A stretch of 64,000 nucleotides of DNA. Origin: Promethearchaeota archaeon. Lineage in GTDB: Archaea; Asgardarchaeota; Lokiarchaeia; Sigyniarchaeales; SOKP01. Position 1 is the first letter of the stretch. The number at the start of each line of letters is the position of its first letter. Of the stretch, positions 3,710 to 57,000 are shown one piece after another. A program made the position numbers and the translations under genes. The notes under the pieces are model-generated. The model saw nothing but the letters and a program-made list of their open reading frames with translations. It ran no database searches and had not been told where the DNA came from. The DNA is taken from contig JAEOTR010000023.1 in NCBI GenBank assembly GCA_016839705.1, positions 33,144-97,143 of the forward strand. Reading direction: 5' to 3'.

Positions 3710-4252
3710 TTAAGAAAATCTTTGTTTATCTTGATGTTCTTTAACAGAGGTTTCTCTCTCGCTGAGCCTTTCAAGTTTAATTAAACCCTCCTTTATAGCT
3801 TTTATCTCCGTTCGAGTATTTACTTTATAATCCTTGAGGTTATCTAGAATTTCTTTTTCAGTAAAACCCTTATTGTATACTTCCTTGAACGCTTGAATAG
3901 TTTCCTGATGGTAAAAAATGTATTGTTTATTTAGAAATACTATCAACCACTTTTTCTTCAACTGGTTCTGTGATAATTCAAACATTTCTTCTCTAACTTT
4001 TTCAAGAGATTTTTTAAGCTTACGAGCAATTAATTCATCCTCGATCTTATAAAATCCCTTCATGAACTTGTGTAATTTATTTTTAAAGAATATTCTAGGA
4101 ATGTAAGATAAGAAGAATAGTATTATAGTAATAACCGCCATCCAAATTGCGGTAACTGGATTAAAAAAAGCTATTATTATAATGGCAATAATAAGAAATG
4201 CAAACCATTTACGTCCAATAGTTTTAAAAAAGACAATATATTTTTTTGGCAT
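3710..4252 (-). CDS. Hypothetical protein with two N-terminal TM helices
   Basis: Hydrophobic residues ~16-52, then a charged soluble domain. Confidence 0.7.
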   Translation of the reverse strand: MPKKYIVFFKTIGRKWFAFLIIAIIIIAFFNPVTAIWMAVITIILFFLSYIPRIFFKNKLHKFMKGFYKIEDELIARKLKKSLEKVREEMFELSQNQLKKKWLIVFLNKQYIFYHQETIQAFKEVYNKGFTEKEILDNLKDYKVNTRTEIKAIKEGLIKLERLSERETSVKEHQDKQRFS

Positions 4253-4357
4253 AATTTTCTACTTTAGCACTAGTTATTATGATCTATAACATTAATGATC
4301 ACATAAAAAAATTATTTCTAGGTAAATCTTTATATAAATAAAGTAAGTAAGTTTCAA

Positions 4358-4533
4358 ATAACCACATAAACAAGCGTTTCCGGGTTCGGATGGGACCGGG
4401 TATTATCCTAAATCACCATGACCGTGAGCGAACTCACAGTTTGTAGTTTCCCACAGATATCAACCGCAGTACTATCTACAACGCGAGAAAGTTTAACTTC
4501 CGGCGCTTTACTTTATGTTATTTATGTGGTTAT
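4358..4533. repeat. Inverted repeats forming a processing stem around the 5S gene
   Basis: ATAACCACATAAA (4358-4370) / TTTATGTGGTTAT (4521-4533), perfect 13 bp; AAGCG (4372-4376) / CGCTT (4504-4508); CCGG at 4380-4383 and 4500-4503. Confidence 0.85.
4378..4497 (-). rRNA. rrf: 5S rRNA, circularly permuted gene (3' half - UUCG - 5' half)
   Basis: Minus strand reads GUUAAAC...UUGUAGAUAGUACUGCGG...CUGUGGGAAACUACAAACUGUGAG-UUCG-CUCACGGUCAUGGUG...ACCCGGUCCCAUCCGAACCCGGAA. The conserved 5S loop C (CCCAUCCGAAC), loop E (AGUA/GAAA) and helix I are all present, but the halves are in swapped order. Confidence 0.9.
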
Positions 4534-4550
4534 AAAACCACGAGATTACC

Positions 4551-4560
4551 ATTTAATAAG
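4551..4560 (-). promoter_or_regulatory. Putative TATA box for the 5S precursor
   Basis: Minus-strand CTTATTAAAT about 20-25 nt upstream of the start of the outer stem (4533). Confidence 0.45.
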
Positions 4561-4703
4561 GACGGTTATTTTCTTTGTAAATACCTTCTTATTTGGTAAA
4601 ATGTAAATAGAAAAAATATAGCTTAATAATTAAATTTTTTCATTAGAAAGATTAAATTTAAAAGGAGCAAAACAAATCACGCTAACGACAGATAGGATTT
4701 TAA

Positions 4704-7275: not shown

Positions 7276-8862
7276 ATGTCATTTGATTTAGAAGATATTG
7301 CAGGAATTGGGAAAACAACCGCAGAAAAAATGAGAGCGGCAGGGATAGATTCAATTGAAAAATTAGTTGGAGTTAAACCTGAAGATTTAGTAAAGTTAAA
7401 AATCAAAGGTGTAGGTAAGGCTAAAGCTCAAAACATAATTTCAGATGCAACAGAAATTCTTGAAGAGCTTAGCAAAAAAGAAAAATCCTCAAAAGTGCTA
7501 ACGGAAAAAATTGATGAGAAACCAAAACCAAAATCTAAACCTGAAACAGCAACAAAATCTAAATCAAAACCAACTTCTAAAGAAAAGCGAACTTCATTAA
7601 AAGAATTAATAAAACAACAAGCAGAATGTAATATTGGTCTTGTTGGGCATGTAGATCACGGAAAAACTACACTTGTTAAATCTTTAACGGGAGATTGGAC
7701 TGATCGACATTCTGAGGAACAAGAACGAGGCATTTCAATAAAATTAGGTTATTCTAATGCTACAATTCTCTACTGTCCTGTTTGTGATGAATATACTACC
7801 GCCCATCTTATAGAAATAAAAAGAGCAAAAGGTCAACCTCGGTTTACATGCCAAAACTGTAAAGGGAATTTAGAATTTAGAAGAAATATATCATTTGTTG
7901 ATGCCCCTGGTCATGAGATTTTAATGGCAACTATGTTAAGTGGTGCGTCTTTAATGGATGGTGCTTGCCTTCTAATCGCTGCAGATGAGAGATGCCCCCA
8001 ACCTCAAACACGAGAACATCTAGCCGCATTAAATATTGCGGGGATTAAAAAAATAATCATCTTACAAAATAAAATTGATGCAGTTTCTCGGGAACAAGCT
8101 TTAGAGAATTTTCAGCAAATTAAAATATTTGTAAAAGGCACTGTTGCAGAAAATGCTCCAATCATACCAGTTTCAGCAGTTTTTGAGGCGAACCTCCATT
8201 TAGTTATAAGAGCTTTTGAAGAAATTATCCCTACTCCTACTTTTAATGAGGAGGAAACCTTTCAATTTTTAATTGCTCGATCATTTGATATCAACAAACC
8301 AGGAAAAAATATTGCAGAATTACAAGGTGGGGTAATAGGCGGTTCAGTATTAAAGGGTAATATTGAAATTGGGTCTCAAATTGAAATAAAACCAGGTATA
8401 CGCGTTAAGGAGGAGTATATTCCTATTAAATCAAAAGTTGTAAGTATTAGTCAAGGAGATCAAAATTTAGAAATTGCAAAACCAGGTGGACTAATTGGTT
8501 TAGGTACGAACTTAGATCCAGCATTGACTAAAGGCGATCATCTAATTGGACACCTAGTTGGAAAACCAGGAACACTTCCCGAAATTCTTAAAGAAGTTGA
8601 ATTAAAAGTCAATCTTTTAGACAGAGTAATTGGTTCAGAAGTACAGATGAAGGTCCAACCACTAAAACATGGTGAAAAATTGTTATTAGTTGTTGGAACT
8701 GAGAAAACGGGTGGAACTGTTACCAAAATATTAAAGAATAGTACAATAATAAATCTCACACCGCCAATCTGCCCTCCTGAAGATTTTATATATGCAATTT
8801 CTCGTATCATAAATAGACGTTATCGTTTAATAGGATATGGTGAAGAAGTAAACCACAAATAG
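7276..8862 (+). CDS. eif2g: Translation initiation factor aIF2/eIF2 gamma with an N-terminal HhH extension
   Basis: NIGLVGHVDHGKTT, RGISIKLGY, zinc knuckle CPVC/CQNC, DAPGHEILMATMLSGA, PQPQTREH, QNKID, RLIGYG. Confidence 0.95.
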   Translation: MSFDLEDIAGIGKTTAEKMRAAGIDSIEKLVGVKPEDLVKLKIKGVGKAKAQNIISDATEILEELSKKEKSSKVLTEKIDEKPKPKSKPETATKSKSKPTSKEKRTSLKELIKQQAECNIGLVGHVDHGKTTLVKSLTGDWTDRHSEEQERGISIKLGYSNATILYCPVCDEYTTAHLIEIKRAKGQPRFTCQNCKGNLEFRRNISFVDAPGHEILMATMLSGASLMDGACLLIAADERCPQPQTREHLAALNIAGIKKIIILQNKIDAVSREQALENFQQIKIFVKGTVAENAPIIPVSAVFEANLHLVIRAFEEIIPTPTFNEEETFQFLIARSFDINKPGKNIAELQGGVIGGSVLKGNIEIGSQIEIKPGIRVKEEYIPIKSKVVSISQGDQNLEIAKPGGLIGLGTNLDPALTKGDHLIGHLVGKPGTLPEILKEVELKVNLLDRVIGSEVQMKVQPLKHGEKLLLVVGTEKTGGTVTKILKNSTIINLTPPICPPEDFIYAISRIINRRYRLIGYGEEVNHK

Positions 8863-56430: not shown

Positions 56431-57000
56431 TTAGGCTTCTTTGTATTTGTTATATAAATTCTTTATTATTGCTTGAAATGCTTCATATACACCTGATCCC
56501 GTTTTAGCTGAAGTTTGAAAATACCCTAAGAAACCTCTTCCTTTCACAATTTCTTGAATTTTTTCATTCTCAGTATCTTCTTCTTTTACTAAATCAATTT
56601 TATTTCCAAATAACACGATAGGAAGGTCTCCTACATGACTTTTAATATCCTCATGCCATTCAGGAATTTTATTGAAACTTTCTTCATCAGTATGGCTAAA
56701 AACAATAATAGCTGCTTTCGAACCCTTATAAAACGTAGGGCGCATGAAGTCAAATTCGCGTTGACCCGCTATATCCCAGAAGAACAATTTACAATTATTT
56801 CCTTCAATATCTTCATCATATTTACTAAATTGTGCTCCTATTGTTTTAATATAATCTTTTTCAAAACTACCTTTGGTATATTTTTTAATTAGGCTTGTCT
56901 TTCCAACGGCTCCATCACCGATGACTATGATCGTCAACAATTATATATTGAAGACAGTGATCTTGAAGACAAACCCTTTTGAAGCATCATCATTTCCCAT
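56431..57000 (-). CDS. Rab-like small GTPase interrupted by a 30-nt insertion (179 aa if spliced)
   Basis: ATG at 57000 gives MGNDDASKGFVFKITV[FNI*LLTIIV]IGDGAVGKTS; WDIAGQ, NKID, TSAKTG. Confidence 0.85.
56927..56956 (-). other. Candidate archaeal BHB/BHL-type mRNA intron
   Basis: GAUC/GAUC 4-bp helix with bulges ACU and AUA, and intron hairpin GUC-UU-CAAU/AUUG-UU-GAC. Contains an in-frame UAA; removal yields AAG AUC ACA GUC AUC GGU (KITVIG). Confidence 0.55.

What the first reader, a model, noticed from the sequence alone, without database searches (positions are those of the whole stretch)
4358..4533. Circularly permuted 5S rRNA gene built to be spliced into a 120-nt covalent circle
Seen: on the minus strand the 3' half of 5S rRNA (GUUAAAC...loop E...ACUGUGAG, 4497-4433) precedes the 5' half (CUCACGGU...CCCAUCCGAACCCGGAA, 4428-4378). 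The natural ends of helix I (8 bp) are joined by a UUCG tetraloop (4432-4429). The break falls in helix III, with CCGGAA duplicated at both ends. The flanks pair: a 13-bp outer stem, then AAGCG/CGCUU, then a 4-bp CCGG/CCGG helix with a 3-nt AAA bulge on the 3' strand and AAG on the 5' strand (that side is relaxed, BHL-like). Established: archaeal splicing endonuclease cuts after the second nt of each bulge and the inner piece is ligated into a circle; permuted tRNA genes and the Thermoproteus SRP RNA mature this way. Applying that rule joins ...AACCCGGAA to GUUAAAC..., restoring the canonical CCGAACCCGGAAGUUAA exactly, in a 120-nt circle. Inference: this organism makes its 5S rRNA as an excised-intron-like circle, which may stay closed in the ribosome. 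I know of no described permuted 5S gene, and linear-model rRNA finders would miss or truncate it.
Basis: partly seen in the sequence, partly recalled or inferred. Interest (0 to 1): 0.96.

Follow-up and report, generated by a model that had tools for sequence, protein, structure and literature searches.

The report
Back-to-front 5S rRNA gene making rings
This Asgard archaeon's only detectable 5S ribosomal RNA gene is written back half first, between cut signals of the tRNA-splicing type, and environmental RNA from close relatives holds the re-joined 120-base ring, which would explain why 5S genes look missing from many Asgard genomes.

Summary
Confirmed. Window 4497-4378 (minus strand) is a 5S rRNA gene with the 3' half first. 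A UUCG loop joins the natural ends, and a relaxed bulge-helix-bulge (BHB) motif flanks it. Swapping the halves raises the score against linear Asgard 5S from 22 to 55 bits. A permuted-gene model matches 120 of 135 genomes of the family; the layout was seen in 21 Asgard families. The cut site sits at five different positions across relatives, and each time the BHB rule rebuilds canonical 5S. RNA contigs from four studies cover only 4378-4503, carry the predicted junction, and have the lengths of closed 120-123-nt rings. They come from relatives, not this organism. The genome encodes EndA, with a broad-specificity-type loop, and RtcB. Not shown: that these enzymes act here, or that the ribosome keeps the ring closed (about 60%). 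One correction: permuted 5S is already known from brown-algal mitochondria, but unspliced. I found no paper on an archaeal or splicing-dependent permuted 5S gene. This scan has noted the same layout in at least 74 other genomes.

The parts
4552..4570 (-). BRE/TATA-like archaeal promoter (TTATTAAA at 4559-4552), 19 nt upstream of the outer stem
   Evidence: Seen in sequence; a similar AATAACC..CTTA(T/A)A motif lies upstream in relatives. Function inferred, not tested.
4521..4533 (-). Leader arm of the 13-bp outer processing stem; probable transcription start near 4533
   Evidence: conserved across the genus
4504..4508 (-). Leader arm of the exon-side helix (AAGCG)
   Evidence: All 4 pairs counted show changes on both sides; 91.7% of cells paired in 18 sequences
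4497..4503 (-). Leader strand of the BHB: central helix CCGG (4503-4500) and bulge AAG; predicted cut between 4498 and 4497
   Evidence: Central helix 98.6% paired, with C-G to U-A change in 6 of 18; discarded bulge letters vary while the kept G does not
4433..4497 (-). 3' half of 5S rRNA (end of helix III, helix II 3' strand, helices V and IV, loop E, helix I 3' strand)
   Evidence: RF00001 23.1 bits; linear-5S HMM positions 47-115
4429..4432 (-). UUCG tetraloop joining the natural 3' and 5' ends of helix I
   Evidence: Helix I 100% paired with compensatory changes; 78 of 88 elements have a 4-nt loop, mostly UNCG-like; RNA contigs run through it
4378..4428 (-). 5' half of 5S rRNA (helix I, helix II 5' strand, loop B, helix III, loop C, AA bulge)
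   Evidence: RF00001 positions 26-52, 22.1 bits; HMM positions 4-51
4377..4383 (-). Trailer strand of the BHB: CCGG (4383-4380, also the 3' strand of mature helix III) and bulge AAA; predicted cut between 4378 and 4377
   Evidence: RNA joint 4497 to 4378, 'goes back 120'
4358..4376 (-). Trailer: CGCUU (4376-4372) and the arm of the outer stem (4370-4358)
4302..4314 (-). T-run, possible archaeal terminator
   Evidence: Sequence only; not tested

Best explanation
This is the organism's working 5S rRNA gene, encoded as a circular permutation. (1, shown) The halves are swapped and the natural ends are joined by a tetraloop. (2, inferred) A stand-alone promoter gives a precursor of about 180-230 nt whose leader and trailer pair. 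The leader's CCGG stands in for the 5' strand of helix III and captures the 3' strand, so a relaxed BHB forms. (3, inferred from the known rule plus covariation) The splicing endonuclease EndA cuts after the second base of each bulge, and RtcB joins the inner piece as if it were an excised intron. (4, shown for close relatives in RNA) The product is a 120-nt ring with canonical CCCGGAA|GUUAA restored; helix III can then re-pair. (5, inferred, about 60%) The ring stays closed and binds uL5/uL18 in the ribosome. My confidence in steps 1-4 alone is about 0.9; the figure given is for all five.
For: Swapped sequence 54.8 bits against 22.2. The permuted model hits 120/135 family genomes, nearly all once. 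No RF00001 hit over the cut-off in this genome, nor in four genomes whose 23S is assembled, three of them single-contig (G082, G137, G147, G160). The two linear 5S hits inside the family follow bacterial 23S genes, and both genomes also carry the permuted gene. Covariation: 93.2% of cells paired, 23 of 37 pairs with changes on both sides, against 32-43% for slid controls. Blind test: the top-scoring BHB gives the best, locally optimal, right-sized 5S circle in 54 of 88 elements, against about 2 expected (13 by the looser null; related genomes are not independent). Five cut positions, each with its own BHB restoring canonical 5S: the window's register, one base either side of it, CCGGUC|CCAUCC, and UCGGAA|ACACCC. 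RNA contigs of 4 studies: depth only in 4378-4503 and none in the flanks; the joint 4497 to 4378 in two runs and the same junction letters in the other two; eight contigs of 150-153 nt, the length of a 120-123-nt cycle at 31-letter words; X17 record 11 goes round the whole ring with 2 differences. EndA with a loop and lysine matching the crenarchaeal broad-specificity loop, RtcB, uL18 and uL5. For staying closed: the linker is a 4-nt loop in 78 of 88 elements, mostly UNCG-like, and no contig ends or joints fall at it.
Against: The RNA comes from relatives in environmental samples and only as contigs, which cannot give ends, strand or abundance; no DNA run was laid as a control. Library size selection and rolling-circle reverse transcription favour rings over a 116-nt linear RNA (own knowledge), so a reopened mature form could be hidden. 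The junction alone proves nothing, because relatives that break elsewhere encode it contiguously; only the closed contigs count. This assembly lacks its 23S gene, so its own lack of a linear 5S is weak evidence. The intron-side helix is weak (3x1 loop, 2 bp), the BHB is not the minimum-energy fold, and no EndA structural subunit was found. Low-level circles of ordinary 5S occur in Sulfolobus and Halobacterium and may be degradation products (PMC3326292, PMC12558985).
Confidence: 0.6

Rival explanations
1. Same gene, same cut and join, but the ring is only an intermediate: a nuclease opens the tetraloop on helix I and the ribosome holds an ordinary linear 5S of about 116-120 nt, as with permuted tRNAs and circular pre-16S.
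For: Permuted tRNAs are re-ordered after transcription (PMC4267664), and archaeal circular pre-rRNAs are widely held to be re-linearised (PMC12918454). Contigs cannot show what share of molecules is closed.
Against: The linker is a conserved 4-nt stable loop on a fully paired helix, not a long variable spacer. No loose ends or joints at 4429-4432 in four runs. Thermoproteus SRP RNA and some archaeal 23S rRNAs stay circular.
Confidence: 0.28
2. The transcript is trimmed but not ligated. The ribosome holds a linear permuted 5S with a nick in helix III, as brown-algal mitochondrial 5S stays permuted, and the rings are by-products.
For: Precedent for a permuted final product (PMC4267664). Low-level 5S circles may be degradation products in other archaea.
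Against: The BHB register rebuilds the canonical sequence to the base at five different break points, which is hard to explain unless joining is selected. The junction appears in RNA of four studies at one position, unlike the variable Halobacterium circles.
Confidence: 0.07
3. Mis-assembly, a dead rearranged copy, or a reverse-transcriptase template switch at the CCGGAA repeat; a normal 5S lies in an unassembled rRNA region.
For: This assembly lacks its 23S gene. A 6-nt repeat could promote template switching.
Against: Present in 120/135 family genomes with compensatory changes, next to the same two genes in 36 of 55 loci. Single-contig genomes with an assembled 23S have only the permuted form. 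A template switch on a precursor would leave flank coverage, and there is none. Many relatives lack a perfect repeat.
Confidence: 0.03

Closest known systems
Permuted, circular SRP RNA gene of Thermoproteus tenax and T. uzoniensis (Plagens et al. 2015, PMC4731332)
   Same: A universal RNA whose gene looked missing; ends moved inside the molecule; own TATA promoter; leader and trailer form a BHB; ligation restores a functional element; product circular.
   Different: Here the RNA is ribosomal 5S, the layout spans most Asgard families sampled rather than two species, the break point varies, and some copies also carry 30-nt introns. EndA cleavage and the mature circle were shown by experiment there, not here.
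Permuted mitochondrial 5S rRNA of brown algae (Valach et al. 2014, PMC4267664)
   Same: A 5S gene with a hairpin in place of open helix I and with displaced ends; poorly found by linear models.
   Different: The algal ends lie at the three-way junction, the RNA stays linear and permuted, and no cut-and-join step is described. Here the break is in helix III or loop B/C, is flanked by a BHB, and is re-joined.
Permuted tRNA genes (Cyanidioschyzon merolae; cited in PMC4267664)
   Same: 3' half encoded before the 5' half; pieces cut and ligated into the right order.
   Different: There the circle is an intermediate whose linker is removed (own knowledge); here the linker is a 4-nt loop with no sign of removal.
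BHB-circularised archaeal pre-16S and pre-23S rRNA; circular or permuted mature 23S (PMC12918454, PMC7758197)
   Same: The rRNA is treated as the intron of a BHB stem and circularised.
   Different: Those genes are colinear, and joining links the natural ends. Here the gene itself is permuted, so joining is needed to build the RNA. PMC12918454 states that 5S is not processed this way in the cultured species studied.

Membership tests
5S rRNA (RF00001) | Full-length match at the Rfam gathering score as encoded | tested here: not met
   23.1 and 22.1 bits against a cut-off of 38; expected for inverted halves
5S rRNA (RF00001) | Full-length colinear match once the halves are swapped | tested here: met
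   54.8 bits on an HMM of 17 linear Asgard 5S genes; cmsearch with RF00001 itself could not be run on the swapped sequence
5S rRNA (RF00001) | Helices I-V with loops C and E | tested here: met
   Helices I, II, IV and V covary; helix III and loop C match RF00001 positions 26-52
5S rRNA (RF00001) | Present in the large subunit with uL5 and uL18 | not testable with these tools
   Both protein genes are present; incorporation not shown
EndA/RtcB substrate (BHB or relaxed BHL) | 4-bp central helix, 3-nt bulge and flanking helix | tested here: met
   Exon side canonical and covarying
EndA/RtcB substrate (BHB or relaxed BHL) | Second 3-nt bulge closed by an inner helix (strict BHB) | tested here: not met
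   The inner side is a 3x1 loop with 2 bp, so it is the relaxed BHL form
EndA/RtcB substrate (BHB or relaxed BHL) | Product joined at the predicted positions | tested here: met
   RNA joint 4497 to 4378 in relatives. Within the 6-nt repeat the exact cut is ambiguous; it is bracketed by variants in relatives
EndA/RtcB substrate (BHB or relaxed BHL) | Cleavage by the cognate enzyme | not testable with these tools
   EndA with a CSL-like loop and RtcB are encoded
Permuted gene with a mature circular RNA (Thermoproteus SRP type) | No linear copy in the genome | tested here: inconclusive
   None found here, but this assembly lacks 23S; met in relatives with an assembled 23S
Permuted gene with a mature circular RNA (Thermoproteus SRP type) | The functional form is the closed circle | tested here: inconclusive
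   Rings exist in RNA; their share and place in the ribosome are unknown
Brown-algal permuted mitochondrial 5S | Ends at the three-way junction, product left unjoined | tested here: not met
   The break is in helix III and the junction is joined in RNA

The most novel reading that the evidence does not exclude
Most Asgard lineages make 5S rRNA only by splicing a permuted gene, and their ribosomes carry a covalently closed, end-less 5S ring. The break point has moved several times and introns have been gained, so ribosome assembly depends on the tRNA-splicing machinery.
Probability: 0.55. Interest if true: 0.93.

Novelty: new variant of a known kind. Interest (0 to 1): 0.86.

Why it matters
5S rRNA is a near-universal ribosome part, yet it could not be predicted in closed Heimdallarchaeum genomes (PMC8813620). 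This layout explains that gap and gives a model that finds the gene. It makes an rRNA strictly dependent on tRNA-type splicing, which I found described for no archaeal 5S. It also bears on what 5S gene the archaeal relatives of eukaryotes had. The moving break point and the 30-nt introns give a natural series for testing how permuted genes arise from intron-bearing ones.

Tried and rejected
Rfam at the gathering cut-off: no hit in the window. ARAGORN: no tRNA in the window. BLAST and nhmmer for a second 5S copy in the genome: none. Target-site duplication or mobile-element origin of the CCGGAA repeat: rejected, since it is explained by the palindromic helix and varies in relatives. Linear 5S in two family genomes (L033, L045): rejected as contamination, each follows a bacterial 23S gene. 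The sigma-70 promoter scan does not suit an archaeon and was at chance level. The first HMM had one reference on the wrong strand; it was fixed and rerun. The looser count of 70/88 includes trivial passes, so I use 54/88. The anchoring failed for nine rows, which I ignored. Most of the 34 blind-test failures have a mismatch in the central helix, an intron, or a rival stem ranked higher. No EndA structural subunit was found. Ten literature searches found no archaeal permuted 5S gene; most subscription journals are not covered. No tree was built, so the direction of change is not claimed.

Full report
Setting. The window is contig C97 of a 3.36-Mb assembly, 93% complete. It carries Rab-like GTPases and aIF2-gamma. 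The element lies alone in the 451-bp gap between two minus-strand genes, and both neighbours recur in 36 of 55 family loci.

Observation. Rfam finds nothing at its cut-off. Below it, two 5S pieces appear in inverted order. An HMM built only from 17 linear Asgard 5S genes scores the swapped sequence at 54.8 bits and the locus as written at 22.2; the predicted cut pair ties for best among 289 pairs, and the ties are the same circle. The break falls just after the natural AA bulge of helix III.

Not an artefact. The stretch is found in 34 of 36 genomes of the genus by DNA search, and a covariance model of the permuted form hits 120 of 135 genomes of the family. In 18 family sequences, 93.2% of cells pair and 23 of 37 pairs change on both sides. 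Capped helix I is 100% paired, the BHB central helix 98.6% and the exon-side helix 91.7%; slid controls give 32-43%. The structure was drawn from these sequences, so the percentage leans high; the two-sided changes are the evidence. No linear 5S passes the cut-off in this genome, but its 23S is unassembled. Four relatives with an assembled 23S, three of them single contigs, also have only the permuted form. The two linear hits within the family follow bacterial 23S genes.

Breadth. I read the permuted layout in 21 coded families of the phylum, including records titled Jordarchaeia, Heimdallarchaeota and Promethearchaeia. Six families have linear genes over the cut-off. One of them, the sister family f2, has single-contig genomes of 4.4 and 6.0 Mb; from memory these sizes fit the two cultured Lokiarchaeia, which would help explain why the layout was missed. 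G160 (3,081,793 bases) matches the 3.08-Mb closed Heimdallarchaeum genome of Wu et al. by size; that paper says 5S genes could not be predicted, and G160 carries two permuted copies.

The cut rule. The strongest comparative evidence is that the break moves and the motif moves with it. Five positions were seen: the window's CCGGAA|GUUAA, one base earlier, one base later, CCGGUC|CCAUCC in many genomes of the same genus, and UCGGAA|ACACCC in family f3. In each, cutting after the second bulge base rebuilds canonical 5S. Letters that the rule discards drift while kept letters do not: the leader bulge reads ACG or AUG in L004, L005 and L074, and the trailer bulge reads GAU in L092 and L116. In a blind test the top-scoring BHB gave the best, locally optimal, right-sized circle in 54 of 88 elements against about 2 expected; kin are not independent, so this is no p-value. 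The leader CCGG pairs with the same strand that forms helix III in the mature RNA, so the precursor and mature folds exclude each other there (inference). The BHB fold is 4.2 kcal/mol above the computed minimum, and its inner side is relaxed.

Enzymes. The genome has one EndA catalytic subunit of 197 aa. Its best solved relatives are 3p1z and 3ajv (from memory, Aeropyrum pernix), and it keeps the loop and lysine that in that enzyme allow relaxed motifs to be cut. No structural subunit was found. RtcB, uL18 and uL5 are present. A recent preprint finds EndA in 58 of 60 Asgard genomes and never mentions rRNA (10.64898/2026.10.13.758758).

RNA. Contigs of four metatranscriptomes from four studies were laid on 4250-4650. 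Depth is confined to 4378-4503 and is zero in leader, trailer and flanks, which argues against DNA. The joint 4497 to 4378, going back 120, is listed in X17 and X18, and the same junction letters appear in X15 and X16. Eight contigs are 150-153 nt long, as expected for closed cycles of 120-123 nt at 31-letter words. X17 record 11 runs once round the ring, through junction and tetraloop, with 2 differences from the window. No single gene layout holds all those neighbours in a row, so rings exist. Limits: these are relatives; contigs give no ends or levels; and library chemistry may favour rings.

Mechanism and rivals. Most likely: promoter, precursor, EndA cuts, RtcB joins, 120-nt ring (0.9). 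Whether the ring is final is open. The linker is a 4-nt loop in 78 of 88 elements, mostly UNCG-like, and no contig stops there, which favours a closed product (0.6 overall). Re-opening at helix I is the main rival (0.28), then a nicked linear product (0.07) and an artefact (0.03).

What is known. The closest mechanism is the Thermoproteus SRP RNA. Low-level circles of ordinary 5S are known in Sulfolobus and Halobacterium. Ten searches found no archaeal or splicing-dependent permuted 5S gene. This scan's own notes hold 92 similar findings in at least 74 genomes; I did not count them as evidence.

Verdict. Real, conserved and expressed in relatives; a new variant of a known kind; interest 0.86.

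Noticed in passing
L008, L009, L010, L031, L119 (loop C); L007, L012, L022, L032 (helix IV); both in L255 and L256: Permuted 5S genes of relatives also carry 30-nt BHB-type introns. Removing them by the same rule raises the HMM score by 11-14 bits and restores the canonical sequence (L255 and L256 read by eye). About a quarter of the family hits are roughly 30 or 60 nt longer than the model.
   Followed up: partly
L254 (G096:C4:391530-391737): A permuted 5S with a 30-nt insert in helix I next to the capping loop, plus the loop C insert.
   Followed up: no
L102, L114, L129, L183 and other f10/f18 loci: A hairpin of about 30 nt sits between the outer BHB and the 3' half, so maturation would need two rounds: circularise, then splice a new intron across the junction. 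It fits cleanly in L102 and L114 but was not resolved in L129 and L183.
   Followed up: partly
L011, L015-L021, L023-L030, L048, L053, L067, L069: Within one genus two break points about 17 nt apart occur at the same genomic locus, using either strand of helix III as the BHB central helix.
   Followed up: yes
window 56927-57000 (minus): A Rab-like GTPase gene with a 30-nt BHB-like insert holding an in-frame stop; removing it by the rule gives an open 179-aa frame with an intact P-loop.
   Followed up: partly
G000 whole genome: ARAGORN finds only 18 tRNA genes, several implausible, in a 93% complete genome, which would fit heavily interrupted tRNA genes.
   Followed up: no
window 7276-8862: aIF2-gamma has an N-terminal extension of about 110 aa whose first 75 residues resemble the RadA N-terminal helix-hairpin-helix region. 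Its P-loop reads through without an insert here.
   Followed up: no
L172 = G057:C169: A record titled Candidatus Deferrimicrobium carries the permuted 5S and has the length of a contig of a genome placed in this archaeal class; probably a mislabelled record.
   Followed up: partly
L033:2054-2368: A group I intron in the contaminating bacterial 23S gene of G092.
   Followed up: no
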